A stretch of DNA of 52,441 bases from an uncultured Elusimicrobia bacterium (GTDB lineage: Bacteria; Elusimicrobiota; Elusimicrobia; UBA1565; UBA9628). The translations under genes were made by a program, and so were the position numbers. The stretch lies in NCBI GenBank assembly GCA_964374095.1, contig CAYJXJ010000006.1, forward strand, positions 4,339 to 56,779, given 5' to 3'. Shown in pieces: positions 7,512-39,351 of the stretch. Below the pieces are notes generated by a model. The model worked only from the letters and a program-made list of their open reading frames with translations. It had not been told where the DNA came from and ran no database searches. The number at the start of each line of letters is the position of its first letter. Position 1 is the first letter of the stretch.

Positions 7512-8080
7512 GTGGCCGAGGCCGGGCCTTCGGCGGCGATGTCGCGCGAGCCCTTCTCTTGCCGAGGGGTGGCGCCGGCGCCGCGGCTGAGCTTCATGCG
7601 GGCGATCTTTTCCTGCAGCTTGATGATGGCGAACTGGAGGGCCTCGGGGCGCGGCGGACAACCGGCGATATAGATGTCGACCGGCACGATCCGGTCCACC
7701 CCCTTCAAGACGGAATAGGAATCATAGTACGGACCGCCGCAGTTGGCGCAGCTGCCCATGGAGATGACGAAGCGAGGCTCCGGCATCTGGTGATAAATCT
7801 GAAGGATGGGCTCCGCCATTTTCTTGACCACGGTTCCCGCGACGATCATCACGTCGGCCTGGCGCGGGCTGGCCCGCGGGATGACCCCCATCCGGTCGAA
7901 GTCGAAACGAGCCGCGTAGGAGGCCATCATCTCGATGGCGCAGCAGGCCAAGCCGAAGGTCATGGGCCAGAGGGACATCTTGCGCCCCATGTCGATGACG
8001 GCGTCGGCGGTGGCGAGAATGAGCTCGCCTCCGGGCAGGCCCTTCGTGGCTCCCGGCAGTTTCTCTAGGATCAGTCCCAT
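7508..8080 (-). CDS. nuoB: NADH-quinone oxidoreductase subunit B (PSST, N2 cluster)
   Basis: Internal ATG at 8080 ([10 protein letters not shown]...), 190 aa. Contains [20 protein letters not shown] and IAGCPPRPE cluster ligand motifs. Confidence 0.93.
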
Positions 8081-8439
8081 ACCAGGGCTCCCTTGCGCCA
8101 GGCGTAGATCAGCCCGAGGAACAGGATGCCCAGGAAGATCGCCATCTCGATGAGGAATGTGGAACGGGCGATGGCGCCCGGATCGCGGGCCGCGACCGCC
8201 CACGGGTAAAGGTAGAGGGTCTCCACGTCGAAAAGGACGAAGAGCAGCGCGAAAACGTAGAAGCGGATGTTCAGCCGGACTCCCGTCGAGCCGGTGGCCG
8301 GTATGCCGCACTCGTAGGTGGAGAGCTTGCGCGCGTAGGGGACCCGGGGCCGCAGGAGCTTCGCGGCGAGCAACGTGACGGCGGCAAACAGCGCGCCCAG
8401 CAGCGCGAAGGCGTAAACGACCGCCATGGCGTGGTTCAT
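8071..8439 (-). CDS. nuoA: NADH-quinone oxidoreductase subunit A (ND3)
   Basis: Internal ATG at 8439 ([21 protein letters not shown]...), 122 aa, 3 TM. Contains YECGIPA and [16 protein letters not shown]-type 4-nt overlap with the upstream methyltransferase stop. Confidence 0.92.
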
Positions 8440-9449
8440 ATCCCTTCGGTCGCGGCGCCCTTGGTTTGGATCAAGACTTTGAACGACTCCCCCATGCCGT
8501 CGGGATGCAGGAGAGTCTTGACGCGCAGGCGCTCGGGAGGAGGGGCGGCCTCGACGAGCGCGCCGATCCCGCCGTCGATCAGAAAGCCCGCGAGGGTCGA
8601 GTATCGATCCAGGCCCAGGCCGAGGCGGCGGCCCTCCCCGATGAGGGCCTCGAAATCGACGTTGGCGGTGATGTCGCGTCCCCCGAGCCCCAGTTCCGAG
8701 CCCTCGGTCTCGACCCGGTGGCGCCGGAAGGTGCGCGGGGGGTTGATCGCCCCCGGCGGGAGACGCGAGCCGTAGTCCACCGTAACGACCGCGCCGGCGG
8801 TGAGCTTGCGGGCGACGGTTCCCAGCCACCGGAGGGCTTCCAGCCCCACCGCGTGGCGCTGTCCCGGGGGCAGGCCGTCCAGGGTCCGCGCGGGTCCCTC
8901 CAGCGCGGGGCTCGAGAGCGGGCCGAGGACGGGGACGTCACCCCGGATGTATACCTCGCGCGCGCCTTCCGGGGTCGTTTCCAAGAGGTGGAAGGGCAGC
9001 GCGTCGACCAGCTCGTTGGAGTGGAAGACGCCCGCGCAGGGGAGGACGTCTTCGAGGCGGGAGTAGCCCAGAACGTGCGGGGTCGCCGCCGAAAGGCTCA
9101 AGACGCTGTCCAGGAGGAGCTGGCGCTGCGGTTCGACGAGGATGAACCGCAGGCTCGAGAAAAGATCCGGCCGAAGCCTGGACAGAGCCGCGGCGACCTG
9201 CCGCGCGAGCAGGCCCGTTCCCGAGCCCATCTCAACCAGGGCGTAGGGTCCCCGGATCCCCTGCCGGCGCAGGGCGTCGAAGCGGCGCGCGAACTCCCCC
9301 GCCAGGATTTCGGCGAAGGCCGGGGTGAGTTCCGGGGCGGTGTAGAAATCCGCCCCGGGACGCCTGCGGGAGTAGAAGCCCCCCCGCCCGTGCAGGGAGT
9401 GGGCCATGAAATCGCGGAACGGGACCGCTGCGGCGGCGGGGGCGCTCAT
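8436..9449 (-). CDS. Class I SAM-dependent methyltransferase, MidA/NDUFAF7 (DUF185)-like
   Basis: 337 aa: [17 protein letters not shown]...[19 protein letters not shown]...[15 protein letters not shown] (SAM motif I)...[14 protein letters not shown]. This pattern is what I recall for the MidA/NDUFAF7 family. 4-nt overlap with nuoA. Confidence 0.7.
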
Positions 9450-27294: not shown

Positions 27295-28326
27295 TCATGG
27301 CGCGGCGCTGATGGGGGCGGCCTGCATCGTTTGACGCATGGTTTCCATCGAAGCGCACAGGCGGCCGCAAATCCCGTTGGCGGCGAGCGTCCCCGCCAGT
27401 CGTATCGCGTTCGCGACGACTTTCCCCCCGGGGCGCGACGGCGCGACGATGACGATGCCGCCGACCCCCAGCAGGGGAGCCGCGCCCCATCCCTCGAAAT
27501 CGAACTTGGCGCGCATAGACCCCAGCGCCCCCCGCAGAAGCCGCGCCCCCACGCGCTGGAGGGGCGTGGTGAGGGCGCCGTCGAAAGCGGTGATCATGGC
27601 GGCGGCGGTCCCCTCCACCGCCTTGACCGCCACATCCCCGACGAAGCCGTCGCAGACCACCACGTCCGTCGTGCCCGCGGCGATGTCGCGGCCTTCGACC
27701 GGCCCGGCGTAGCGCAGCCCGCTGGATTTGATCAAGGGGATGGCTTCCCGCACCATGTCGCCGCCCTTGTATTCCTGCGGGCCGCTGGAGAGTATGCCCA
27801 CGGAGGGTTCCGGGATCTTGTGGACTTCCTGGGCGTAGAGCGTCCCCATCATGGCGAATTGCAGCAGGTGCCAGGGCTTGCACTCGGTGTTGGCGCCTCC
27901 GTCGATGAGGACGGTGGTCCCCCGCGGGGTGGGCACGGAGAAGGCCAGGGCCGGGCGCAGGACTTCGGGAAGCCTTTTGAGCTGCCAGAGGGCCGCGATC
28001 ACCGAAGCCCCGGGGTTTCCAGCCGAGACCAGGGCGTCGGCGGCGCCGCGGGCGACGAGCTCGGCGCAGGCCATGATGGAAGCGCGCGGCCGGGCCCGGC
28101 ACGCCGCGGCGGGCTCGTCGCCCATGCCGATCACCTCGGGGCAGTCGACGATCTCAAAACGAGGGTCCCCCGGGGCGACGGCGCGCGCGGCGAGCGCGGT
28201 CCGAATATCCGCCGCCGGTCCGACGAGCACGAGCTTGGACCCCACGGCGTCGGCGGCGGCGACGGCCCCCGAGATGTTGGGAGCCAGGCCCCGGTCTCCG
28301 GCGGCCGCGTCCAGGGCGATTGTCAC
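27295..28326 (-). CDS. plsX: Phosphate acyltransferase PlsX
   Basis: GTG at 28326 in a GTGA overlap with the rpmF stop (VTIALDAAAGDRGLAPN...). Contains VSAGNPGA and IDGGANTECKP, and has the classic rpmF-plsX synteny. Confidence 0.9.
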   Translation of the reverse strand: MTIALDAAAGDRGLAPNISGAVAAADAVGSKLVLVGPAADIRTALAARAVAPGDPRFEIVDCPEVIGMGDEPAAACRARPRASIMACAELVARGAADALVSAGNPGASVIAALWQLKRLPEVLRPALAFSVPTPRGTTVLIDGGANTECKPWHLLQFAMMGTLYAQEVHKIPEPSVGILSSGPQEYKGGDMVREAIPLIKSSGLRYAGPVEGRDIAAGTTDVVVCDGFVGDVAVKAVEGTAAAMITAFDGALTTPLQRVGARLLRGALGSMRAKFDFEGWGAAPLLGVGGIVIVAPSRPGGKVVANAIRLAGTLAANGICGRLCASMETMRQTMQAAPISAAP

Positions 28327-28559
28327 CCCTGCGCCGGCCCGGAGGCCTCCCCTCCCTCTCCCTTCTTCTTTTTCACCTTCTTGGGGACCACCAGACGCCC
28401 GCCGTAAAACCCGCATTCGGGGCAGACGGTATGGGGCGGGTGGAGCCTGCCGCACGCGGGGTTGCTGCAGCGGCTCAAGGACAGGGCTTCGAGCCTCCAG
28501 TTCTGGGACCGCCGGCTGTCGCGGCGAGACCGGGTATGCTTGCGTTTTGGGTTGGGCAT
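28323..28559 (-). CDS. rpmF: 50S ribosomal protein L32 (Cys-containing zinc-ribbon form) with Lys/Gly-rich C-terminal tail
   Basis: MPNPKRKHTRSRRDSRRSQ...CSNPACG...CPECG... fits the L32 N-terminal signature. Confidence 0.93.
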   Translation of the reverse strand: MPNPKRKHTRSRRDSRRSQNWRLEALSLSRCSNPACGRLHPPHTVCPECGFYGGRLVVPKKVKKKKGEGGEASGPAQG

Positions 28560-28568
28560 GACGGGGAA

Positions 28569-28598
28569 ATTCTATTGACTTTAAGGAAACAAGTCAAT
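28569..28598 (-). promoter_or_regulatory. Putative rpmF promoter TTGACT-17-TAGAAT, 9 nt upstream of the ATG, embedded in an 8-bp inverted repeat (ATTGACTT-N9-AAGTCAAT)
   Basis: On the minus strand: -35 at 28592-28597, -10 at 28569-28574, rpmF ATG at 28559, no SD in between. The inverted repeat (28574-28581 / 28591-28598) overlaps the GT2 stop codon. Confidence 0.5.
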
Positions 28599-29557
28599 CT
28601 GCGGCGGACGGCGCGGCGGCCGTGGTTTCCGCCACGAAGAACCCCGGCTTGTCCTTGATGTCGAAGTAGACCCGCACGAGGACTTCAGCGAGGAGCCCGA
28701 GCAGAACCAGTTGAAAGCCGATCAGCCCGAAAAATATCGAGATTTGAAACAGCGGCTGATCCTTGACGAAGGTCCCCTCGAAGAACTTCTTGTAGAGGGT
28801 GATGGCGGCCAGGCACGCTCCCAGGGCTGCGAAGCCGAGGCCCCAGCCGCCGAACAGGTAGATGGGCTTGCCCAGATAGGCATCCATGAACTTCACGGTC
28901 AGAAGGTCAAGTACGACCTTGAAAGTCCGCCCCAGACCGTATTTGGATCTGCCGAGCGCTCTGGGGCGGTGCGTGACCTCGGCCTCGCCCACGCGGGCTC
29001 CCAGGGAGCCCGCGAGAGCTGGAATGAAGCGGTGCATCTCCCCGTAGAGGCGCAGGGGCTTCAAGTAGCGGCTGCGGTAGAGCTTCAGGGTGCAGCCGTA
29101 GTCGTGCAGGGCGACCCCGGTGATCCAAGAGATGAGGAGATTCGCCGCTTGGGACGGGAGCCGCCGGGTGAGCCAGGGGTCCTTGCGCTCGCGCCGCCAG
29201 CCGCTGACCACGTCGTAGCCTTGGTCCAGGACGACCAGCAGCGCCGCGATGTCGCGGGGATCGTTTTGCAGGTCCGCGTCGAGACAGGCGATCACCTCCC
29301 CCCGCGCGGCCGAGATGCCCGCGGCGAGAGCCGCGGTCTGTCCGAAGTTGCGGCCCAAGCGGGTGCCGGTGAAGCCCGGCAAGCGCGTCGCGAAGTCCTT
29401 GATGATGTCCCAGCTGCGGTCGGTGGAACCGTCGTCGATCAGCAGGATCTCGTAGCTCCGCCCGAGCCGGGTCATCGCGTTCAAGACCTCCACGCCCAGG
29501 CCCGGGAGGCTCTCGGCCTCGTTGTAGACGGGGATGATGACGCTCAGCGTCGGAGCG

Positions 29558-29565
<8 letters not shown>
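28594..29565 (-). CDS. GT2-family polyprenyl-phosphate glycosyltransferase (DPM1/GtrB/ArnC-like)
   Basis: 323 aa: [26 protein letters not shown] (DxD), two C-terminal TM helices. Confidence 0.88.
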
Positions 29566-30925
<1,360 letters not shown>

Positions 30926-31027
30926 GGCTTGGCCTCGACTTGCCGAATTCCCCAAAAGTCTAACAATTTGCGGCCCGGTTAGGCTACGACCTGCGCCTCC
31001 AATGACAGGAGCACCGGAGGAGAATAT

Positions 31028-31495
31028 TCATACCCGTTCCCTCAGGCACCGCAGGATCTCCTCGGCGGAGGCTTGACGGGTCACGGCCTGCCTGAAATCG
31101 GGTTGGTGCAAGGCGGCGGCGATCTGAGAGAGAAGGGCCAGGTGCAGGCGGACCGTGGGGGCCAGGATCACGAATAGGGCGCCGACCGGCTTGCCGTCGG
31201 CCGCGCCGAAATCGACGGGCTTCTCGAGCAGGCAGAGCGCGGCGATGGAGCGCGACGACGTCGGAAAGACCAGGGGACTGCGCGGATGCGGTATGGCGAT
31301 GCCCTCTCCCAGCGCCGTCGTGCAGTCCCTTTCCCGTTCCGTCAGCATACGAGCCGCCAACGCCCTTTCGGCGGGAGACAAAGGAAGGAGCTCGGCCGCG
31401 GCAGCCATGGCGGCTCTGGCATCTCCGCCCGGAACGCCGTGGTGTATGCCGCCCGCCTCCAAGGCCTCCGCTAAGGTCACGCCGGCTCGGGGCAT
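31028..31495 (-). CDS. ptsN: PTS EIIA type-2 (EIIA-Ntr/PtsN-like) regulatory protein
   Basis: 155 aa. Contains ERERDCTTALGEGIAIPHPRS (phosphorylatable His context) and FVILAP. No other PTS genes in the window. Confidence 0.75.
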   Translation of the reverse strand: MPRAGVTLAEALEAGGIHHGVPGGDARAAMAAAAELLPLSPAERALAARMLTERERDCTTALGEGIAIPHPRSPLVFPTSSRSIAALCLLEKPVDFGAADGKPVGALFVILAPTVRLHLALLSQIAAALHQPDFRQAVTRQASAEEILRCLRERV

Positions 31496-31501
31496 GGCGG
31501 G

Positions 31502-32656
31502 CTATTTGGCTCGAGGGGACAGGAGTTCCCCGTAGAGCTCCTCCTGCCGCCGGACCATGAGGTCGATGTCGAACTCGGGACCGACGCTCTCGCGGGCGCG
31601 CGCCCCCAGGCGCCGGCGCAGGCCCGCGTCGGTCAGCACGGCGGCGACGCGCTCGACCAGGAGGTCGACGTTGCCGATGGGGACGCTCAAACCGTTGTCG
31701 CCGTCGCGCAGGATGTCGGAAACCCCGTCGGTGGCGTAGCAGACGCAGGCCAGGCCGGTGCGCATCGCCTCCAGGAGCGAGCGGGGCAGCCCCTCCCAGA
31801 GCGAGGTGAGTACGAAGACGTCGGTCGCGGCGAGGATCTCGTCGGTGTCGCGCCGCCAGCCGGGCAATAGCAGCTTGCCGTGCAGGCCGGAGGCGAGCAC
31901 TTGGCACTCGACTCGCGGACGCAGCGGCCCGTCGCCGACGAAAAGGAAGCTCGCCTGGGGGACCCTCGCCAGGACTTCGTGGGCCACGACGACGAAGTCC
32001 ATGGGGTTTTTCTGGGGTTTGAGGTTGCCGATCGAGGTCACCAGCAGGGAGTGCCGCCCGGCGCCGAGAGAGGCTTTCTTCGCCCCGGGGTCGGCAAGGG
32101 GCGCGGGATACCGTGCCAGCGGGATTCCCGAGCGGATCAGCGCGCCCCGGCGCTCGCCCGGCAGGCGGTGCCGCCGCGCGGTGGCGCGGTTGGAGAGGCT
32201 GACGAATACCAGGCGGTTGGCGGCGAGGCAGGCCAGACGCTCGGCCCAGACGTAGGCCGCGCGCGCCAGCGGCGGCTGCCAGTCATGGAAGCCGAAGCCG
32301 TGGTAGGTGTGGACGACCCCGGGCACGCCCGCCAGCCTCGCCGCCAGGCGGCCGAGTATTCCGGCCTTGGAGCTGTGGGTGTGGACGACGTCGGGCTTCT
32401 CGGCGAGGAAGAGAGACCAGAGGCGAAAGAACGCCAGCAGATCCAAGACCGGCCGCACCTCCCGGACCAACTCCGGGATCAGCACGACCCGCGGGGCCCC
32501 GGCCCCGCCGGGTCCCCCCGCGCTCAACTCAGGGTCGAGCGCGCCGCCCGGCCCGGTCACGAGGACGGCCTCGAATCGCTCCGGGTCTAGAGCGCGGCAG
32601 GTGTGAAGGGTGTTGCCCTGGGCGCCGCCGAGGTCCATCCGGGTGATCACGTGCAT
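31502..32656 (-). CDS. GT4-family (GT-B) glycosyltransferase
   Basis: Contains ITRMDLGGAQ, HTHSSKAGILGR and LTSLWEGLPRSLLEAM (E-x7-E). ATG at 32656 has AGGAGG 9 nt upstream. An alternative ATG at 32710 forms an ATGA overlap with the SpoIID-like gene stop. Confidence 0.85.
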   Translation of the reverse strand: MHVITRMDLGGAQGNTLHTCRALDPERFEAVLVTGPGGALDPELSAGGPGGAGAPRVVLIPELVREVRPVLDLLAFFRLWSLFLAEKPDVVHTHSSKAGILGRLAARLAGVPGVVHTYHGFGFHDWQPPLARAAYVWAERLACLAANRLVFVSLSNRATARRHRLPGERRGALIRSGIPLARYPAPLADPGAKKASLGAGRHSLLVTSIGNLKPQKNPMDFVVVAHEVLARVPQASFLFVGDGPLRPRVECQVLASGLHGKLLLPGWRRDTDEILAATDVFVLTSLWEGLPRSLLEAMRTGLACVCYATDGVSDILRDGDNGLSVPIGNVDLLVERVAAVLTDAGLRRRLGARARESVGPEFDIDLMVRRQEELYGELLSPRAK

Positions 32657-32706
32657 CACCTTCACCCTCCTTCCGGAGGGAGGCCGTCCTCCTTTCCCGG
32701 AGGGGG

Positions 32707-34863
32707 TCATCGCTTGAGGCGGGGGTTGCGGCGCCGCTTGCCGGTCTCGGAGGCTGCCTTGCGCGCGGGAGCCCGGGGGTCGTGGACGTCGAGTCCGGGG
32801 AAATAGTGGGCGAGGATTTGGCGCCAGACGCGGCCGAGACTGGCCTGGCCGACGGCTCCGGCCTGGCAGAGCCCGCGGCCGTGTCCGGTCCCGGCGCCCC
32901 ATAGGACGAAATGGGTCGCCTTCGCGCCTTGATAGAGAGGCTGGATGGTGAAGAGCGTCGAGCGAAGGGAGCCTGGGGAGAGAAACTGACGGATCGCCGG
33001 CTCACCCTCAAAGATGAGGTTTTCGCGGGTCCCCTGCACTTCCAAGGAGCGGATGCGTCCCGAAGGCGTCCGGGAGAGCGCCCGGATATGGCGCACCGTT
33101 CCCAAGGCCTTCACGACCTGGGCGCGCCGGGAAAGCTCCGAGGCGTCGATCAGGCGGATCCACCGGGCCTCGACCGCGGGCGACAGGCTGCCCGCCTCGC
33201 AGTAGCGATCGCGCGGGGGGTAGGAATGCATCCAGCGCTCCAGGTCGGCGGCGGTGGCGGCGAGGGGCGCGGGGTTGGCGGAGTCGGCGACGGGCCGCAG
33301 GTGGTCGAGCCCTTCCCCCTCGAATCCCTCGGGAGATTCGGTGAACCCGCCGCAGTTGGCGTGGTCCGCCACGTTGGCGGGGCCGCCGCCGGGCCTGCGC
33401 AGGACCACGCCCCGGGTCTCCCGCACGGCCTGCGTCGCCGCGGCGAGCTCGGCGTTAAGTCCCAGATAGCGTTGGCAATGATCGGAGTCGCACAGGTCGG
33501 CCTTCTCGAAATTCTCCCGACGATGGGTCTTGTGCCAGAGGGCGCGGGTCCTCGCCACGACGGACTGGGCTTTGTAGGCTTCCATCGGGCTGCGCTGCGT
33601 CAGGGCGGCCGGGACGGCCCCGTAGAGGTAATGCTCCAAGGGAAGGTCGTTGACGATCTTGAAGCCGTAGGGCGTCGGGACGATCTCCACAACCCCCCGC
33701 AGCTCCCGGTCCCCGGGGTCGGCGACGCCTTCCTCGCGAAGCACGGCGCTTTTGATCAGCACCGAGCCGTTCGCTCCGGCGGGCTCGAAGCGAAATGCCT
33801 GTTTGGAGGTGTATTGCAGGACGCCGCCGGTGTCGCGCACCTCGACGATGTTCGATTCGGGACGGAACTCCACCGCCCACTGCGCCATGGCCCTGCCGTC
33901 GTCCCGGACCACCTCGCCCCCGGCGGCGGTGAGGCGGAAGGCGGCATTGGCCATGACGTAGAGACGCGTCGCCTCGACGCCGACCCCGTCGGAGCCGCTG
34001 AACACCGCGACCCTGATGCGGGGCGCGGTGGGGTCCTCCGGCTCCCCGGCCCCGGCGTCGAGCATGGGCCTCGAGAGCCGCCGGACGGGCCGCAACGCCT
34101 CCGGCGTGGCGGGAAGGTATTTGGAGACCTTGCGCGCCGCGGCGGCGGCGTCGGAGTCGTCGGGATCGAGGAGGAGGGCCGCTTGCCAGGCGCGGAAAGC
34201 CTGCCGGTTCTCACCCACCTTCTGATAGAGGCGGGCGAGCTCCCGCAGGGCTTCGCGGTTGAGGGGATCGACCCCCACGCTTTCGCCGAGATAGGCCAGC
34301 GCCAACTGCCGGTCTCCCATGGCCAGGGCCGTCAGCCCCGAAAGCTGGGCCGACAGGGGGATCATGTAGGGGCCCTGCGATCGGGCCGCCCGCAGGGGCT
34401 CCTTGGCGGCCTTGGGATGTTCGTCGAGCAGGGAGGCGAGTCCCAGGCCGATATTGGCTTCCGCCTGCGCGGCCGTTGTCGTTGAAAGCTCCAGCGCCTT
34501 GCGAAAGACCGGGATGGCGTCGCGGGGCCGGCTATTCGAAAGGTAGCTCCAGCCCCGCTGACTCCACAGAAAGGCGTCGCGTCCCTCCAAGGAGGCTTTG
34601 GTCCAGGCCGGCAGCGCCGCTTCCGGACGGCCCATGTCGCGAGAGAGGATGGCCAGGCTCGGACCGGGGTCCGGAGCGGTTATGCCGAGCAGGGCCAAAT
34701 AGCGGTAGGAGGCCGCGGCGGCGTCGAGGCGACCGGCCAAGAAGGCGCGGTAGGCCTCGCGCAAGGCGGAAGGGGCGTCGGCCCCCGGGGGCACGGCCGC
34801 CGGCGGGAGCTCGCCGCACCATGACGCCGCGGCCCACAGGGCGATCGCCGCAAGGATGTTCAC
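32707..34863 (-). CDS. Secreted TPR-repeat + SpoIID/LytB-domain protein (peptidoglycan remodelling)
   Basis: 718 aa with signal peptide MNILAAIALWAAASW. The N-terminal half is TPR-like. The C-terminal half carries SpoIID features (LEHYLYGAVPAAL..MEAYKAQSVVARTRAL, CDSDHCQRYLG, ...GHGRGLCQAGA). Confidence 0.8.
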   Translation of the reverse strand: MNILAAIALWAAASWCGELPPAAVPPGADAPSALREAYRAFLAGRLDAAAASYRYLALLGITAPDPGPSLAILSRDMGRPEAALPAWTKASLEGRDAFLWSQRGWSYLSNSRPRDAIPVFRKALELSTTTAAQAEANIGLGLASLLDEHPKAAKEPLRAARSQGPYMIPLSAQLSGLTALAMGDRQLALAYLGESVGVDPLNREALRELARLYQKVGENRQAFRAWQAALLLDPDDSDAAAAARKVSKYLPATPEALRPVRRLSRPMLDAGAGEPEDPTAPRIRVAVFSGSDGVGVEATRLYVMANAAFRLTAAGGEVVRDDGRAMAQWAVEFRPESNIVEVRDTGGVLQYTSKQAFRFEPAGANGSVLIKSAVLREEGVADPGDRELRGVVEIVPTPYGFKIVNDLPLEHYLYGAVPAALTQRSPMEAYKAQSVVARTRALWHKTHRRENFEKADLCDSDHCQRYLGLNAELAAATQAVRETRGVVLRRPGGGPANVADHANCGGFTESPEGFEGEGLDHLRPVADSANPAPLAATAADLERWMHSYPPRDRYCEAGSLSPAVEARWIRLIDASELSRRAQVVKALGTVRHIRALSRTPSGRIRSLEVQGTRENLIFEGEPAIRQFLSPGSLRSTLFTIQPLYQGAKATHFVLWGAGTGHGRGLCQAGAVGQASLGRVWRQILAHYFPGLDVHDPRAPARKAASETGKRRRNPRLKR

Positions 34864-35336
34864 CGGGGCCCGGAGGCGCGCGCTTTGCGCCGCCCGGACG
34901 GAACGGGGGCGGGCCTGGCGATGGACGGGGGCGCGGGCGCGGCCGCCGGCGCGGCCCCCGTCGGCGGGATGTCGCGGCGCACTTCATTGAGAATCCTCTC
35001 GGCCTGGGCGCGGCCGTCGGGCCTATTGAGCTGCAGGGCGATCCCGGCCCTGGTCTCGAGATCGGAGACCGCATGCCCCTCCGCTCGCGCCCGTTGGATT
35101 TCCGCGGCGACCTTGGCGTGGAGGCGCGCGAGGCGGGCCTGCTGCCCCTTCTCGAGCTCCTCGAGGATGATCCGTCCGCGGGGGTCGGCCGGCCCCTGGT
35201 CCGGGTAGCGCCAGCGTCGGTAGGCGTCGAAGGGGACCCGGCGCCATTCATAGGCCCAGGGAAGCGCGGCCAGCGCGAAGAGCGTCAAGACAAGGTTGAG
35301 CGGCGTGACCCACCGCATCAACTTTTCCAAAGTCAC
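34860..35336 (-). CDS. Hypothetical N-terminally membrane-anchored helical protein with Pro/Ala-rich tail
   Basis: 158 aa. TM helix WVTPLNLVLTLFALAALPWAY. G/C-ending codon bias. 4-nt overlaps with both neighbours. No family recognised. Confidence 0.6.
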   Translation of the reverse strand: MTLEKLMRWVTPLNLVLTLFALAALPWAYEWRRVPFDAYRRWRYPDQGPADPRGRIILEELEKGQQARLARLHAKVAAEIQRARAEGHAVSDLETRAGIALQLNRPDGRAQAERILNEVRRDIPPTGAAPAAAPAPPSIARPAPVPSGRRKARASGPR

Positions 35337-35770
35337 CGCCGCTCCTCCTCGCCTTTGAGCCGCGGGTAGACGCGGGTGACGATGCCGAAGGAGAAGAGCT
35401 TCACCTTATCGAAAAGGATCTCGAGGTCCTGGACCATGTACCAGGCCTCGATCTTCTGTTCGTTGGCGATGATGTGATGATGCAGCAGGCGCATCTGCTC
35501 GGAAAGCCCCTGCAGCTCCTTTTCGAAGGCCGAGACGACGCGCTGCAGGCCGCGCGCGGTATCCAGGAGCTCGGGCGCCTTCGTGCATTCGCGGTCGAGC
35601 CAGTCGATGAGGCCGGGCAGGGCCGTCGAATCCTGGATGAAGGTGCGCATCGTGCGGCGGAGGAGCTGCAGATCGTCCCCGAAGAGGCTGTCGCGGTAAG
35701 ACGTCCTGTTGCGGGCGGCGTTGGCCGCGCGATGGGCGCGGAAGAGCAGGTCCTCGACGCGTCCCGCCAT
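35333..35770 (-). CDS. Hypothetical helical cytoplasmic protein (possibly 23 codons longer, non-ATG start at 35839)
   Basis: 145 aa from the first ATG. The frame stays open upstream to 35839, where ATC is preceded by AGGAGGG at 8 nt. No family recognised. Confidence 0.6.
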   Translation of the reverse strand: MAGRVEDLLFRAHRAANAARNRTSYRDSLFGDDLQLLRRTMRTFIQDSTALPGLIDWLDRECTKAPELLDTARGLQRVVSAFEKELQGLSEQMRLLHHHIIANEQKIEAWYMVQDLEILFDKVKLFSFGIVTRVYPRLKGEEERR

Positions 35771-35930
35771 CGCCCCGACCTTGTCGGTGAACTCGATGAA
35801 TCGCTCCTCGACGACCTTGAATAGCTTGTCCAGCTCGATGGGGGCGTCCCTCCTAAATGACCGGCAACGGTCAATCTAATCAGATTCCGCGCCGCGGCAC
35901 AACCTCGGCTCAGTCGCCGGATCGGCCTCC

Positions 35931-37733
35931 TTAGGGGCCGAGCAGGTCATCGAGGAGCTTTTCGTCGTCGGCGGCCGGCTCCGCGGCCGGGGCTTTGGCC
36001 TTGGCGGGCTTGGGGGTTTTGGGAGCGACGGCCGCCGGTTTCGGCACTCCCGGCAGCAGGAGATCGTCGAGGCTCGGCTCGGGTTCGGCGTTCTTCTTGG
36101 CCGCGCGCTTTCTTGCCGAAGGCTTCTTGGCGGCCGCCGGGGGCGGGCTCTCCGCCTCGAAGAGAGACGGCTCCCCCGCGCCCTTTCCGGCGGGCGGGGC
36201 GGCGGCCGGCTCGTCTCCGAAGAGCGCCGCCGCGTCCGGGTCGCCGGCCGGGGCGGCGGCCGAGGGCGGCTTGGCGGCGAGAAGTTTCCGGGCCGCGGCG
36301 TTGAGCCCTTTAACCCCGCCGTCGGAAAGGGTCACCGCGAATTCCAAGGGTTTCTTGGTTTTTCCCTTTCCTTTAGGCGGGTAGAAATTAACTTGATAGC
36401 CGTCATGCGTTCCCGGGAGCTTCTCGGCGATCCACGGCAGCCCAGGGGGAGGATTGGGACCCTCCAACTCGGCGCCGAGGGTCTTGCCGGAGGGGAGCGG
36501 GAATTGGCGCGCCATTTCCAGCGCGCGCGCCTTCAGCTCTTCCTCCGTCGGCTCCGGCGGCGGGGGCGGCGGCAGGGGCTGGGCCGGGGGGGGAGGCGCG
36601 GGGAGGGATGGGGATTCCTCGGGCGGCGGCTCGGCGGCTTGTTTCTTCCCAAAGGGGCCCAGCCCGAGCATGTAGGCCCCGCCGGCTCCCAGGACCGTGA
36701 TGCCGGCGATCCCGGCCATGACGAGCATGCCGCGTCCCCGTCGGGGCGCGGGGCCCGGCGCCGGCGGCGGCGCGATCACCGGCGCGGGCTCCGCGGGCAC
36801 GACCGGCTCCATGGCCGGAGGCAGGGCCATGGGGGGCAGGCCGAGAACCGGGGGTTGGGTCGGGGGGAAAGAGGTTCCAAACCCGGCATCCCCGGCCGGC
36901 GGGGAGGCGGGCGTCAGCGGCGGAGGGAGAGGGATGGGCCTCGCCGCCCCCTGGCTTTCACCGGCGGATGGCGAGGACGGCTCGGGCAGAAGAGGCGCCG
37001 CCAGGGGGGCGCTCCCCCCCGCGGCGGGTCTTGATTCGACGCGTTCCAGGGATTCTTCCATCCGGCGGAGATCTTCGCGCAGGCGCTTGACCTCCGCGAG
37101 CGGCTCTTCGAGCCGGCGGACGTCTTCCTTGATCGCCCCGACTTCCGAAAGCTGGGATTGAAGCCGCGAGAGTTGGGCCGAGACATCCTTCAACGTCCGT
37201 TCGTGGGTCTCGACGTTGGTCTCGACGGAGCGCTCCGCCGCCACCGCCTGGGCGAGGTTGTCGCGCAGATTCGATCCCACGTCCGCGAGCCTCCCCTCCA
37301 GGCTTTCGAGCTTGCGCAGCAGCTCCGCGGCTTGGGCCGATTTTTCTCCGAGCTCGACGTGCAAGCCGGATATTTCGGTGTCCTTGAGCCGGAGGTCGCC
37401 CTGCAGGCGAGACACCGTGTTTTCCATCAGGTTCATCTTCTCTTGGAGACTCCCGAGGGCGGCGAGGTCCTTGAGGGTGGGCTCCGGCGGGAGCCCCGCG
37501 AAAAGCGCCGAAGCGGGGTCGCCGCCCCGGGCGGCCGGCGAGAGTTGGGTGGCCTTGAGAAGAGAGAGCTGCAGCTCGGGCACCATCCCCGCGCGCTGCC
37601 AATCGCCGATGTGGGTTCCTTTGCGGCCTTCCGGGCAGACGAGAGCTTCCGGGGAATAGCTGGGAAGCTGGGAAAGATCGTCGGGCTCGTAGGGTCCGTG
37701 GACTTGGTTGTTTAGGAAGAGCCAGTAGCGCAT
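35931..37733 (-). CDS. GYF_2 (DUF4339)-domain / coiled-coil / Pro-rich bitopic membrane protein with Lys-Ala-Pro-rich tail
   Basis: 600 aa. N-terminal MRYWLFLNNQVHGPYEPDDLSQL...GDWQRAGMVPEL fits GYF_2. About 140 aa of heptad-like coiled coil. One TM helix (MLVMAGIAGITVLGAGGAYMLGL). The C-terminal tail is AKP-rich and H1-like. Confidence 0.65.
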   Translation of the reverse strand: MRYWLFLNNQVHGPYEPDDLSQLPSYSPEALVCPEGRKGTHIGDWQRAGMVPELQLSLLKATQLSPAARGGDPASALFAGLPPEPTLKDLAALGSLQEKMNLMENTVSRLQGDLRLKDTEISGLHVELGEKSAQAAELLRKLESLEGRLADVGSNLRDNLAQAVAAERSVETNVETHERTLKDVSAQLSRLQSQLSEVGAIKEDVRRLEEPLAEVKRLREDLRRMEESLERVESRPAAGGSAPLAAPLLPEPSSPSAGESQGAARPIPLPPPLTPASPPAGDAGFGTSFPPTQPPVLGLPPMALPPAMEPVVPAEPAPVIAPPPAPGPAPRRGRGMLVMAGIAGITVLGAGGAYMLGLGPFGKKQAAEPPPEESPSLPAPPPPAQPLPPPPPPEPTEEELKARALEMARQFPLPSGKTLGAELEGPNPPPGLPWIAEKLPGTHDGYQVNFYPPKGKGKTKKPLEFAVTLSDGGVKGLNAAARKLLAAKPPSAAAPAGDPDAAALFGDEPAAAPPAGKGAGEPSLFEAESPPPAAAKKPSARKRAAKKNAEPEPSLDDLLLPGVPKPAAVAPKTPKPAKAKAPAAEPAADDEKLLDDLLGP

Positions 37734-37777
37734 AGCGACACGGTCTTCGACCGCGTTGACTAGTATAACAGCCGGCC

Positions 37778-37807
37778 TTGGGAATTCAATTGCCGATTTG
37801 TTACAAT
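37778..37807 (+). promoter_or_regulatory. Putative promoter TTGGGA-18-TACAAT; -10 ends 7 nt before the tRNA-Lys 5' end
   Basis: -35 at 37778-37783, -10 at 37802-37807, tRNA starts at 37815. Confidence 0.4.
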
Positions 37808-37814
37808 GCCCTCA

Positions 37815-37887
37815 GGGCTATTAGCTCAACTGGTAGAGCAGGCGCCTCTTAAGCGCAAGGTTACAGGTTCGATTCCTGTATAGCCCA
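37815..37887 (+). tRNA. tRNA-Lys (anticodon CUU), CCA not encoded
   Basis: Manual cloverleaf: GGGCTAT-TA-GCTC-AACTGGTA-GAGC-A-GGCGC-CTCTTAA-GCGCA-AGGTT-ACAGG-TTCGATT-CCTGT-ATAGCCC-A. Confidence 0.9.
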
Positions 37888-37899
37888 GTTGCCCCTCCG

Positions 37900-37982
37900 G
37901 GGCGGGTGGCGGAACGGCAGACGCGCACGGCTTAGGACCGTGTGGCCGAAAGGCCTTGGGGGTTCAAATCCCCCCTCGCCCA
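37900..37982 (+). tRNA. tRNA-Leu (anticodon UAG), type II with long variable arm
   Basis: GGGCGGG-TG-GCG-GAACGGCAGA-CGC-G-CACGG-CTTAGGA-CCGTG-TGGCCGAAAGGCCTT-GGGGG-TTCAAAT-CCCCC-CTCGCCC-A. Confidence 0.88.
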
Positions 37983-37989
37983 CGCCTGA

Positions 37990-38011
37990 GGTTCCCCCCC
38001 GGGGGGGAACC
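37990..38011 (+). terminator. 22-nt perfect palindrome GGTTCCCCCCC/GGGGGGGAACC directly after tRNA-Leu
   Basis: Read directly. 11-bp arms with no spacer. No U-tract follows. Confidence 0.4.
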
Positions 38012-38070
38012 GAGAGTGGGGGGGCCGATAGCCGTTTCCGTTTCATTAAGGAATAACGAGGGATCATTTT

Positions 38071-39351
38071 ATGGGGCTCTTCACCAAATCCAAGCCGACC
38101 GAGGAATCTCCGTATAAGAAAATCAAGGAGGAAGGCTGCCTGGTTTCATTCTCGGTGGAGGTGCCCGCCGCCGAAGTGGAGTCCGAGACTCAGACCCGGC
38201 TCGTCCGTATCCAGCAGCGGGCGCGGATACCCGGGTTTCGCGCCGGGAAAGCGCCGATGGAGATCATCCAGAAGCGTTTCACGCACGCCGCTCGCGAGGA
38301 GGCGGTGGAGGGCCTGCTCCGGCGTCATATCCCCCGCGCCCTGGAGCGATTTGGGCTCTCGCCGGTCGCCCCGCCCCGGGTGACCGAGCTTTCCCATCCC
38401 GAGGCCAAGTCCTTGCGCTTCAGCGTGGCGGTGGAAATCACTCCCCAGGCGGCTCCCCGCAATTACGCCGGCATCTCGGTCTTGAGAAGCTCCTACCCCG
38501 CGACCGACGCGGAGTTCGACAAGCGTCTCGGCGAGCTGAGGGAGGGGCAGGCGCGGTTGGAGGCCAGCGACTCCGAGGCGCTGGAGTCGACCCACTACGC
38601 CGTGGTCGATTCCTCCGCGGTCTCGGGCGGCAAGCCGCTGCCCGAGCTGACGGGGCAGGGGCTGCTCATCGACATGTCCTCCGATGAGACCGCCCGGGGC
38701 CTGGCCCAAGGCCTCGCCGGCCTGCGCCGCGGCGAGACGCGCGAGGTCAAGGTCGACCGGTCCGGCGCTCCCGCCCTGCTGACCGTGACGCTGCGCGAGA
38801 TCAAGCGCAAGACCCTCCCGCCCATCGATGACGACTTTGCGCGGGACCTGGGATTCGGCAGCCTGCTCGAGCTGCGCGGCGGCCTGCGCGAGATGATCGA
38901 GAAGGAGGGGCGGGAGAGATCCGAGCGCGAAGTCCTCGGCCAAATCGAGGAGGCCCTGCTGGCCCAGAATCGCCTGTCGTTGCCCCCCTCCCTGGTGGAG
39001 GCCCAGTCCGAGCGCCTGCTCGAGCGCCTCCGCCACCGCCTCCTCGGACCGGAGCGGCAATGGTCGGCTGCCGAGTCGGGGAAGCTCAAGGAGCAGCTGC
39101 GCCCCCAGGCCGAGAAGGAGCTCTCCCTTTCCTACATCCTGCGCGCGATCGCGGAGCAGGAAAAGATCGAGGTCACCGACGCCGACCTCGAATCCGACCT
39201 GGCCCGCAATCTGGAGACGGCCCGGTCGGACCGCCAGAAGGAAGAGGTGCGCCGGCTCTTCGCCGAGGGCCGGGATGCCATCCGAGGCCTGATACGAGAC
39301 CGCAAGACCATGGCGTTTCTCAAGGAAAAGGCCGTGATCAAGGAAAGCTAG
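38071..39351 (+). CDS. tig: Trigger factor
   Basis: 426 aa: RARIPGFRAGKAPMEIIQKRF (ribosome-binding signature GFRxGxxP). Conserved tig-clpP synteny. Confidence 0.9.
   Translation: MGLFTKSKPTEESPYKKIKEEGCLVSFSVEVPAAEVESETQTRLVRIQQRARIPGFRAGKAPMEIIQKRFTHAAREEAVEGLLRRHIPRALERFGLSPVAPPRVTELSHPEAKSLRFSVAVEITPQAAPRNYAGISVLRSSYPATDAEFDKRLGELREGQARLEASDSEALESTHYAVVDSSAVSGGKPLPELTGQGLLIDMSSDETARGLAQGLAGLRRGETREVKVDRSGAPALLTVTLREIKRKTLPPIDDDFARDLGFGSLLELRGGLREMIEKEGRERSEREVLGQIEEALLAQNRLSLPPSLVEAQSERLLERLRHRLLGPERQWSAAESGKLKEQLRPQAEKELSLSYILRAIAEQEKIEVTDADLESDLARNLETARSDRQKEEVRRLFAEGRDAIRGLIRDRKTMAFLKEKAVIKES

What the first reader, a model, noticed from the sequence alone, without database searches (positions are those of the whole stretch)
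31502..37733. Uncharacterised translationally coupled envelope cluster: GYF/coiled-coil membrane protein, two small unknowns, TPR-SpoIID and GT4
Five consecutive minus-strand genes are involved, and the last four are chained by 4-nt start/stop overlaps.
- The 35336/35333 and 34863/34860 overlaps are seen directly. A third (32710/32707) exists only if the GT4 starts at the alternative ATG 32710 rather than the annotated 32656.
- The first product combines a cytoplasmic GYF_2 domain, about 140 aa of coiled coil, Pro-rich linkers, one TM helix and a Lys/Ala/Pro-rich tail.
- The next two (145-168 aa cytoplasmic helical; 158 aa N-anchored helical) match no family I recognise.
- They feed directly into a secreted TPR-SpoIID/LytB peptidoglycan-remodelling protein and a GT4 glycosyltransferase, followed 6 nt later by an EIIA-Ntr-like regulator.

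This architecture suggests a trans-envelope scaffold that positions or regulates a cell-wall hydrolase activator and a glycosyltransferase. I know of no described system with this composition.
Basis: inference. Interest (0 to 1): 0.65.

Follow-up and report, generated by a model that had tools for sequence, protein, structure and literature searches.

The report
Elusimicrobial envelope operon with inactive SpoIID
This is a real gene cluster, conserved in and apparently confined to Elusimicrobiota, that pairs a membrane-spanning coiled-coil protein and two small unknown proteins with a secreted SpoIID-like cell-wall protein that has lost its catalytic residue, so it more likely binds or senses the cell wall than cuts it.

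Summary
Five consecutive minus-strand genes lie at 31502-37733. The two GTGA start/stop overlaps are real, and neither small ORF matches Pfam, NCBIfam or PADLOC.

The cluster GYF/coiled-coil/TM protein, s1, s2, TPR-SpoIID-like protein and GT4 recurs in about 30 related loci, at 30-60% protein identity. Every named source is an Elusimicrobia/Elusimicrobiota MAG.

Four corrections:
1. The SpoIID-like domain has no catalytic glutamate (Ala420 in the window). The same position is A/V/L/I/S in all 25 related loci compared, so it is probably not a lytic transglycosylase.
2. s1 and s2 are accessory. Single lineages lack one or both, and s1 has paralogs elsewhere.
3. The EIIA-Ntr gene is found only in this window. 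Most relatives have a patatin-like lipase there, usually followed by a GT-C-like or an FAD-oxidase-like gene.
4. The third overlap is probably not used here. GT4 most likely starts at ATG 32656.

New finding: nearly all homologues of the GYF protein end in a conserved LLDDLL(K/G)(E/P)-COOH motif on the periplasmic side.

I infer, without direct proof, a trans-envelope tether or sensor in which this tail docks the TPR domain of the inactive SpoIID-like glycan binder. Broad local synteny weakens the argument for functional linkage.

The parts
37762..37789 (-). Sigma-70-like promoter candidate (TTGAAT-16-TATACT with an extended TG) upstream of the GYF gene. It is the only such site on this strand in the cluster.
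   Evidence: This is a consensus match only. No terminator-like site on the minus strand was found inside 30900-38100.
35931..37733 (-). Bitopic membrane protein of 600 aa. The parts are a GYF_2-like N-domain (aa 1-60), a conserved linker LPPEPTLKDLAALGSLQEK (aa 81-99), a single long helix or coiled coil (aa 88-233), a Pro-rich disordered linker, a TM segment (aa 335-359), a conserved periplasmic alpha/beta domain (aa 390-487) and a Lys/Ala/Pro-rich tail.
   Evidence: The family has 133 clusters, and all named ones are Elusimicrobia/ota.
36039..36074 (-). Internal tail motif SLDDLLLPGVPK (aa 554-565). One subgroup of homologues ends at this motif.
35934..35957 (-). Extreme C-terminal motif LLDDLLGP-COOH (aa 593-600). 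L594, D595 and L598 are invariant in a 40-sequence alignment, and the motif is modelled as a short helix.
   Evidence: (90 of 120 homologues match a strict pattern; near variants, counted by eye, bring it to about 100).
35333..35839 (-). s1, a cytoplasmic six-helix bundle protein from a new small family. Met-1 of the homologues aligns with ATC 35839, which has the SD AGGAGGG 8 nt upstream (168 aa). The first canonical start is ATG 35770 (145 aa).
   Evidence: (pLDDT 90.8).
34860..35336 (-). s2, a 158-aa protein with an N-terminal TM anchor (aa 10-29), a helical domain and a basic C-terminal tail. Its GTG start overlaps the s1 stop (GTGA).
   Evidence: Which side of the membrane the soluble domain faces is not resolved.
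32707..34863 (-). Secreted 718-aa protein. The parts are a signal peptide, TPR repeats (about aa 35-245), a beta-rich middle region and a SpoIID/LytB-like domain (aa 401-693). Its GTG start overlaps the s2 stop (GTGA).
33604..33606 (-). Codon for Ala420, the position of the catalytic Glu of SpoIID (C. difficile E101).
   Evidence: The position is A/V/L/I/S in all 25 related loci compared.
31502..32656 (-). GT4 retaining-type glycosyltransferase of 384 aa with an EX7E motif (E288-E296). The likely start is ATG 32656, with GGAGG 9 nt upstream. The alternative ATG 32710 would overlap the upstream stop.
31028..31495 (-). EIIA-Ntr-like gene 6 nt downstream of GT4. It is adjacent but not part of the conserved cluster, and it was found only in this window.

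Best explanation
The region is an operon specific to Elusimicrobiota. I propose that it encodes an envelope-spanning, non-catalytic, peptidoglycan-associated complex.

**Shown**
- The first protein is bitopic. A conserved cytoplasmic GYF-like domain and a roughly 145-aa coiled-coil helix are joined, through Pro-rich linkers and one TM helix, to a conserved periplasmic alpha/beta domain. A basic tail follows and ends in LLDDLL-COOH.
- The fourth protein is exported. It carries TPR repeats and a SpoIID-fold domain whose catalytic Glu has been replaced throughout the clade.

**Inferred**
- The degenerate SpoIID domain keeps the family's affinity for peptide-free ('denuded') glycan strands but cannot cleave them.
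- Its TPR domain captures the C-terminal LLDDLL peptide of the membrane protein.
- Together they would act like a split SPOR-type protein such as FtsN or DamX. They would tether or report amidase-processed peptidoglycan, for example at the septum, to a cytoplasmic coiled-coil scaffold.
- s1 (cytoplasmic helical bundle) and s2 (membrane-anchored helical protein) would be accessory adaptors.
- The co-transcribed GT4, followed in most relatives by a patatin-like lipase and in several also by a GT-C-like gene, would be an envelope glycolipid or glycoconjugate module expressed with the complex.
For: - **Operon layout.** The genes are contiguous, two pairs overlap by GTGA, and there is one upstream promoter-like site with no internal terminator-like site.
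- **Recurrence.** The same gene order occurs in about 30 loci, with s1 at 30-54%, SpoIID* at 37-54%, GT4 at 54-62% and the GYF N-terminal region at 31-53% identity. It also recurs in L052, where the upstream tig-clpP-lon context is absent.
- **Loss of catalysis.** The catalytic Glu, mapped from C. difficile E101 in 5txu/5i1t and the equivalent residue in 4rwr, is Ala in the window and A/V/L/I/S in all 25 related loci compared. The Zn ligands and the GHGxGMSQ signature are also degenerate in most relatives. Even so, the domain keeps many residues that are invariant within the clade.
- **Substrate logic.** Canonical SpoIID acts only on denuded glycans (PMC3817522).
- **Family features.** All 120 listed GYF-family homologues have a single TM segment. 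About 100 end in LLDDLL(K/G/N)(E/P), or in the related SLDELLLPGVPK.
- **Motif and adjacency.** Paralogs without the motif (L051, L056) are not next to a TPR-SpoIID* gene.
- **Structure.** The AF2 model gives confident coiled-coil and periplasmic domains and a short C-terminal helix.
- **Export.** SpoIID* proteins carry signal peptides in every lineage read.
Against: - No direct evidence exists for any protein-protein contact, for glycan binding or for localisation.
- I could not run a multimer prediction.
- The loci that conserve the cluster also conserve unrelated housekeeping neighbours: lon-clpP-tig upstream, and icd, GT2, yceD-rpmF and plsX downstream. Part of the conservation may therefore be inherited synteny within one phylum.
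- s1 and s2 are missing in some lineages.
- The GYF_2 match is below the Pfam threshold.
- The periplasmic domain and s1 have no informative structural neighbours.
- Other invariant acidic residues remain in the SpoIID* domain, so a relocated catalytic residue cannot be excluded.
- The role of GT4 in this model is weak.
Confidence: 0.4

Rival explanations
1. Hydrolase-activator model. The degenerate SpoIID domain acts like the degenerate LytM factors EnvC and NlpD, or like B. subtilis LytB. It would allosterically activate a peptidoglycan amidase encoded elsewhere, and the membrane coiled-coil protein would control when and where this happens. This is.
For: The catalytic residue is lost but the fold is conserved. 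The NCBIfam SpoIID_LytB domain model matches at 133 bits. The protein is coupled to a coiled-coil membrane protein, as EnvC is coupled to FtsEX (established knowledge, not tested here).
Against: No amidase or other hydrolase gene is present in the cluster in any locus examined. There is no ATPase or ABC module to drive a conformational switch.
Confidence: 0.2
2. Glycoconjugate or lipid assembly model. The operon is mainly an envelope glycolipid or polysaccharide pathway. Its enzymes would be GT4, a patatin-like lipase, a GT-C/PMT_2-like transferase, and the nearby GT2 polyprenyl-phosphate glycosyltransferase. The TPR-SpoIID* protein would bind that glycan rather than peptidoglycan, and the GYF protein would be the scaffold or the substrate (for example, a glycosylated tail).
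For: In most relatives GT4 is immediately followed by a patatin-like lipase, often overlapping it, and in several by a PMT_2-like GT-C. A GT2 gene and plsX-fabG lie just downstream. GT4 is the best-conserved gene of the set. TPR proteins are common in synthase-dependent polysaccharide systems (weak NCBIfam hits to PgaA and BcsC).
Against: The window's own sublineage (window, L001, L006, L050) has lost the patatin and GT-C genes but keeps GYF-s1-s2-SpoIID*-GT4. No synthase, flippase or outer-membrane porin is present. The GT4 matches to PelF and other EPS families are far below their cut-offs.
Confidence: 0.15
3. No joint function. The genes are neighbours because a block of ancestral gene order is retained in this phylum. 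The GYF protein, s1, s2, SpoIID* and GT4 would then act in separate processes.
For: Synteny extends over about 17 kb and includes clearly unrelated housekeeping genes. s1 has paralogs next to murC or mcsAB-DUF47. s1 and s2 can be absent. An M24 peptidase gene is inserted between GYF and the rest of the cluster in L057.
Against: Gene spacing from s1 to the SpoIID* start is tight or overlapping (-17 to +10 nt between s1 and s2 in 19 of 20 loci; the window's GTGA overlaps). GYF-SpoIID*-GT4 adjacency persists in L052 although the upstream context changed. GYF paralogs that lack the tail motif also lack the SpoIID* neighbour.
Confidence: 0.15
4. Active enzyme after all. The SpoIID-like protein would still be a lytic transglycosylase that uses a different acidic residue, and the cluster would be a peptidoglycan-remodelling machine.
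For: Several acidic residues are invariant within the clade's SpoIID* domain. The window keeps three of the four Zn-ligand positions, ADLCDSDHCQ.
Against: The E101A substitution abolishes activity and function in C. difficile SpoIID (PMC6221140). The equivalent position is never acidic in any of the 25 related loci or in the window. The Zn motif and the GHGxGMSQ signature are lost in most relatives.
Confidence: 0.08

Closest known systems
SpoIID of the SpoIIM-SpoIIP-SpoIID engulfment machinery (Bacillus, Clostridioides)
   Same: The SpoIID/LytB fold is present (Pfam PF08486 E 1e-22; TIGR02669 at 133 bits). The protein is extracytoplasmic and is genetically associated with membrane proteins.
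   Different: The catalytic Glu is replaced (Ala420) across the clade, and the Zn site and GHGxGMSQ signature are degenerate. TPR repeats are fused N-terminally. No SpoIIP-type amidase or SpoIIM is present. The host is a non-sporulating phylum.
Degenerate-hydrolase regulators: EnvC/NlpD (dLytM) with FtsEX, and B. subtilis LytB
   Same: A hydrolase fold has lost its catalytic residues and is genetically coupled to a membrane or coiled-coil component. An activator or binder role is plausible.
   Different: The fold is different (SpoIID, not LytM). There is no ABC transporter, and no cognate amidase is in the cluster. Activation was not tested.
SPOR-domain bitopic division proteins (FtsN, DamX, DedD)
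   Same: The architecture is similar: a cytoplasmic N-terminus, one TM segment and a long Pro/Lys/Ala-rich periplasmic linker. In my model the proposed ligand (denuded glycan strands) would be the same.
   Different: There is no SPOR domain. The putative glycan binder is a separate secreted polypeptide. The cytoplasmic part is a GYF-like domain plus a long coiled coil. The resemblance concerns how the system may work, not family membership.
TPR receptors that bind C-terminal peptides (Hop-EEVD, PEX5-PTS1)
   Same: A TPR domain is encoded next to a partner with a strictly conserved motif at the extreme C-terminus. phmmer gave weak hits to the PEX5 TPR domain.
   Different: No binding test was done. 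The motif (LLDDLL) is hydrophobic and acidic and is predicted to be helical. The compartment is the periplasm.
Synthase-dependent exopolysaccharide systems with TPR proteins and GT4 (Pel, PGA, Bcs)
   Same: A TPR protein and a cytoplasmic GT4 are encoded in one operon.
   Different: There is no synthase, c-di-GMP receptor, porin or deacetylase. All family-specific models score far below their cut-offs.

Membership tests
SpoIID lytic transglycosylase family | SpoIID/LytB domain detectable by a profile | tested here: met
   PF08486 scores E 1.1e-22 (80.9 bits, cut-off 23). TIGR02669 scores 133.3 bits (cut-off 83.3).
SpoIID lytic transglycosylase family | Catalytic glutamate (C. difficile E101, B. 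subtilis E88) | tested here: not met
   Alignments to 5txu, 5i1t and 4rwr place Ala420 at this position. The role of E101 is taken from PMC6221140. All 25 related loci compared have A/V/L/I/S here.
SpoIID lytic transglycosylase family | Zn-binding turn (H134, C140, H145, C146 in C. difficile) and the C-terminal GHGxGMSQ signature | tested here: inconclusive
   The window keeps the C, H and C positions (ADLCDSDHCQ) and GTGHGRGLCQ. Most relatives have lost the Cys/His residues and the His and Ser-Gln of the signature.
TPR repeat proteins | Several TPR profile matches | tested here: met
   TPR_2 scores 2.4e-11, TPR_1 1.6e-10 and TPR_16 4.4e-08, all above their cut-offs. There are also matches to consensus TPR structures.
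GYF_2 domain (PF14237) | Profile match above the gathering score | tested here: inconclusive
   The window scores 21.8 bits against a cut-off of 25.8, and the L006 homologue scores 25.2. Several homologues carry a precomputed PF14237 hit. AF2 gives a small beta-rich N-domain with pLDDT 75-83. Binding to proline-rich ligands was not tested.
GT4 retaining glycosyltransferases | GT-B two-domain profile matches and the EX7E motif | tested here: met
   Glycos_transf_1 scores 2.9e-30 and Glyco_trans_4_4 6e-19. EGLPRSLLE lies at residues 288-296. The closest solved enzymes are PglA, BshA and GlgM at about 1e-18. No equivalog model reaches its cut-off, so donor and acceptor are unknown.
PTS EIIA-Ntr (PtsN) | EIIA_2 domain, and membership of the conserved cluster | tested here: not met
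   The domain is present (PF00359 1e-21). TIGR01419 scores 66 bits, below its cut-off of 138.7. No homologue lies next to the cluster in any other locus.
Anti-phage defence systems (PADLOC) | Any component matching a defence-system model | tested here: not met
   Only coiled-coil noise appeared for the GYF protein (19 bits). The other four proteins gave nothing.
SPOR-domain division proteins | SPOR domain | tested here: not met
   No SPOR hit appeared in Pfam or NCBIfam for any protein of the cluster. The resemblance is one of architecture only.

The most novel reading that the evidence does not exclude
A phylum-specific trans-envelope machine in which a catalytically dead SpoIID domain has become a reader of peptide-free glycan strands. 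It would be held by TPR capture of a conserved LLDDLL-COOH tail on a bitopic GYF/coiled-coil protein. This would make it a functional replacement, split over two polypeptides, for SPOR-type division proteins, with two new small protein families (s1, s2) as adaptors.
Probability: 0.25. Interest if true: 0.7.

Novelty: new variant of a known kind. Interest (0 to 1): 0.5.

Why it matters
- Elusimicrobiota are almost entirely uncultured, and how they grow and divide their envelope is unknown.
- The cluster is a phylum-specific candidate for envelope biology in this group. Its components are annotated only as 'hypothetical protein'.
- It gives a clear case of a SpoIID fold that has lost catalysis outside sporulating bacteria.
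- It adds two new small protein families, one with a confident but unmatched helical-bundle model.
- It includes a strictly conserved C-terminal peptide motif that yields a directly testable TPR-peptide docking hypothesis.
- If the split 'glycan reader plus membrane tether' idea holds, it would broaden the known ways in which bacteria couple the state of peptidoglycan to cytoplasmic scaffolds.

Tried and rejected
- **s2 homologue search.** A word-indexed search found only s2 itself. Relatives turned up only through tblastn and ORF reading of neighbourhoods fetched with s1.
- **First metagenome scan.** It worked with a 15-sequence subset.
- **Structure comparisons.** Foldseek of the s1 model gave only generic helical bundles: the STAT coiled-coil domain, syntaxin Habc and designed proteins. 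The s1 profile against PDB sequences gave only designed bundles. Foldseek of the full GYF model gave nothing below E 0.4, so the periplasmic domain remains unassigned.
- **Other searches.** PADLOC gave nothing relevant. Rfam found only the two tRNAs. Literature searches for GYF_2/DUF4339 in bacteria and for SpoIID in Elusimicrobia found nothing relevant.
- **s2 topology.** The positive-inside rule gives conflicting answers across the family, so I left the side of the membrane open.
- **Rejected ideas.** EIIA-Ntr as part of the system (found only in this window). ATG 32710 as the GT4 start. L003/L005 as evidence that s1 has separated from the cluster, because the same genome carries a complete cluster in L050 and the L003 copy is therefore a paralog.


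Full report
**1. What is in the window**

The stretch 31028-37733 carries six consecutive minus-strand genes.
- The first encodes a 600-aa protein (35931-37733). It gives a sub-threshold GYF_2 match and generic coiled-coil matches.
- The second, which I call s1, is listed as 145 aa from ATG 35770.
- The third, s2, is 158 aa (34860-35336).
- The fourth is a 718-aa TPR plus SpoIID/LytB-domain protein (32707-34863).
- The fifth is a GT4 glycosyltransferase.
- The sixth is an EIIA-Ntr-like protein (31028-31495).

- The s1/s2 and s2/SpoIID junctions are both GTGA overlaps.
- EIIA starts 6 nt after the GT4 stop.
- An ATGA at 32710/32707 exists. Homologous GT4 proteins, however, begin just before the conserved KVVHVITR strand, and ATG 32656 is preceded by GGAGG. 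The third overlap is therefore probably not used here. Genuine SpoIID/GT4 overlaps do occur in relatives.

One sigma-70-like promoter match lies just upstream of the first gene. No terminator-like site lies on that strand within the cluster. Rfam finds only the two divergent tRNAs.

**2. The small ORFs are real, conserved genes**

*s1*
- s1 has four close homologues, all from Elusimicrobia MAGs.
- A profile search of 1.84 billion representative proteins found 35 members at E <= 0.001, of 104-257 aa.
- All full-length homologues start at a Met that aligns with ATC 35839 in the window, 23 codons upstream of the first ATG and 8 nt after AGGAGGG.
- Independent contigs from three sequencing runs carry exactly this sequence. 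The ATC is therefore genuine and is a candidate non-canonical start.
- AF2 models s1 as a six-helix bundle with pLDDT 90.8.
- Neither Foldseek against the PDB nor a profile search against PDB sequences gives a specific relative.

*s2*
- The word-indexed search found only s2 itself.
- tblastn and ORF reading in fetched loci show a 135-177-aa protein in the same position in nearly every locus. It has an N-terminal TM anchor, a conserved helical domain and a basic tail.
- Its membrane orientation is ambiguous by the positive-inside rule.

**3. Neighbourhood conservation**

Loci came from three sources: scans of genome and metagenome collections with s1, look-ups of homologues of the GYF protein, and look-ups of s1 homologues.
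- About 30 loci were long enough to judge. Nearly all show GYF protein, s1, s2, TPR-SpoIID-like protein and GT4 in this order, with tight spacing.
- Identities to the window are 30-54% for s1, 37-54% for SpoIID-like, 54-62% for GT4 and 31-53% for the GYF N-terminal region.
- The GYF family comprises at least 133 clusters at 90% identity. Every named source is Elusimicrobia or Elusimicrobiota.

Several qualifications follow.
- L006 lacks s2, L053 lacks s1, and L052 lacks both.
- s1 has paralogs in other contexts: next to murC (L003, L005) and after mcsA-mcsB-DUF47 (L020, L041, L045). The L003 genome also carries a complete cluster in L050.
- EIIA-Ntr is found only in the window.
- In most relatives GT4 is followed by a patatin-like lipase. 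After that comes either a PMT_2-like GT-C membrane glycosyltransferase or a TAT-signal FAD-oxidase-like protein. The window's sublineage lacks these genes.
- The same loci also conserve aminotransferase-lon-clpP-tig upstream, and icd, GT2 and, where sequence extends far enough, yceD, rpmF and plsX downstream. Part of the conservation may therefore be inherited synteny rather than selection for linkage.

**4. The SpoIID-like domain is catalytically degenerate**

- HMMER alignments to the solved SpoIID structures 5txu and 5i1t (C. difficile) and 4rwr (B. anthracis) place Ala420 of the window protein (GAVPAAL) at the position of the catalytic Glu (agEm, E101).
- E101A abolishes both activity and function (PMC6221140).
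- In all 25 related loci compared, this position is A, V, L, I or S.
- The window retains three of the four Zn-ligand positions, but most relatives have lost them. The C-terminal GHGxGMSQ signature has degenerated to GxGxGxGLCxAGAxGQA.
- The domain nevertheless keeps many residues that are invariant within the clade, so it is under selection for some non-canonical role.
- Canonical SpoIID cleaves only peptide-free glycan strands (PMC3817522). A dead version is a natural candidate for a binder of such strands, or for a hydrolase activator.

**5. The GYF protein**

- All 120 listed homologues have a single strong TM segment.
- Invariant residues cluster in the N-terminal 100 aa, which cover the GYF-like domain and the LPPEPTLKDLAxLGSLQEK linker.
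- AF2 with a 40-sequence alignment gives a small beta-rich N-domain and one continuous helix over residues 88-233 with pLDDT above 90. Disordered Pro-rich linkers follow, then a confident alpha/beta domain at residues 390-487 on the far side of the TM segment, and a short C-terminal helix.
- There is no signal peptide, and basic residues precede the TM segment. The N-terminal half should therefore be cytoplasmic and the C-terminal half periplasmic (inference).
- About 100 of the 120 homologues end in LLDDLL(K/G/N)(E/P)-COOH. One subgroup ends at SLDELLLPGVPK, which is an internal motif in the window protein.
- Two related paralogs without the motif (L051, L056) are not adjacent to a SpoIID-like gene.
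- Foldseek finds no neighbour for the periplasmic domain.

**6. Proposed mechanism (inference)**

- The exported TPR-SpoIID* protein and the C-terminal half of the GYF protein share the periplasm.
- I propose that the TPR repeats capture the conserved C-terminal peptide, much as Hop binds EEVD or PEX5 binds PTS1.
- The dead SpoIID domain would bind glycan strands. The assembly would thus link the state of peptidoglycan to a cytoplasmic coiled-coil and GYF scaffold. This is the logic of SPOR-type division proteins such as FtsN and DamX, split over two polypeptides.
- s1 and s2 would be lineage-variable adaptors.
- GT4, with the patatin-like lipase and GT-C where present and the nearby GT2, looks like an envelope glycolipid or glycoconjugate module co-expressed with the complex. 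Its closest solved relatives are PglA, BshA and GlgM, and no equivalog model reaches its cut-off.

Rival explanations:
- an EnvC/LytB-like activator of an amidase encoded elsewhere;
- a glycoconjugate assembly system in which SpoIID* binds a glycan other than peptidoglycan;
- inherited synteny without joint function;
- an active enzyme with a relocated catalytic residue.

None of these can be excluded with the tools available here.

**7. Comparison with known systems and novelty**

- The cluster is not a member of the SpoIID lytic transglycosylase group in the functional sense, because a defining residue was tested and is not met.
- It is not a PADLOC defence system.
- It is not a recognised EPS system. 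All such models score far below their cut-offs.
- Full-text searches found no description of bacterial GYF_2 proteins of this type, nor of SpoIID homologues in Elusimicrobia.
- I rate it a new variant of a known kind, namely envelope complexes built around a degenerate cell-wall hydrolase fold. It contains two unclassified small protein families and a new conserved C-terminal motif.
- Interest is moderate. The cluster is conserved, phylum-specific and yields testable hypotheses. All function is inferred, however, and no homologue was seen in a cultured organism among the named hits.

Noticed in passing
window 35837-35839 (minus strand), with SD at 35848-35854: s1 appears to start at ATC (Ile codon). 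Met-1 of all homologues aligns here, and a strong AGGAGGG lies 8 nt upstream. The next canonical start (ATG 35770) would remove 23 conserved residues of helix 1. Contigs from three independent runs carry the identical sequence, so this is not an assembly error.
   Followed up: partly
L013, L024, L026, L033, L054, L055 (downstream of GT4); L019, L028-L030, L034, L038: In most relatives GT4 is followed, often with an overlap, by a patatin-like phospholipase. Next comes either a PMT_2-like GT-C membrane glycosyltransferase of about 525 aa or a TAT-signal FAD-oxidase-like protein of about 500 aa. The window and its closest relatives (L001, L006, L050) lack these genes.
   Followed up: partly
L003/L005 (8001-8612); L020 (about 7990-8630), L041, L045: s1 has paralogs outside the cluster. 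One lies between a divergent murC-like ligase plus a 122-aa N-anchored protein and a convergent 600-aa secreted unknown. Another follows mcsA-mcsB-DUF47 and faces a cyclophilin gene. Several of these paralogs carry a C-terminal RAAVPLRxxGRL motif and a Pro-rich tail.
   Followed up: partly
L051 (2915-5158), L056 (603-2804), L057 (6001-11479): GYF-family paralogs that lack the C-terminal LLDDLL motif sit next to a convergent M24 Xaa-Pro aminopeptidase gene and not next to SpoIID*. In L057 the same peptidase gene is inserted between the GYF gene and s2-SpoIID*-GT4-patatin.
   Followed up: partly
window 31028-31495: The EIIA-Ntr-like gene has an intact IAIPH histidine motif and lies 6 nt after GT4. 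It is absent from this position in every other locus, so it looks like a lineage-specific insertion between GT4 and icd.
   Followed up: yes
window 37762-37807: Back-to-back promoter-like sites lie in the 81-nt spacer between the GYF gene (minus strand) and tRNA-Lys/tRNA-Leu (plus strand). Only 0.2 such sites are expected by chance in the 7.2-kb region.
   Followed up: no
L001 12556-15397: A 202-aa unknown and an MmeI-like methyltransferase/restriction gene are inserted downstream of GT4 in the closest genome. This shows that the region between GT4 and GT2 is a hotspot for variable cargo.
   Followed up: no
window 27295-29565: A GT2 polyprenyl-phosphate-type glycosyltransferase, followed by plsX and fabG, lies just downstream of icd. 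GT2 lies downstream of GT4 in six or more related loci (L009, L013, L019, L029, L050, L052), and plsX follows it where sequence extends far enough. It could supply a lipid-linked sugar for the GT-C enzyme found in relatives.
   Followed up: no
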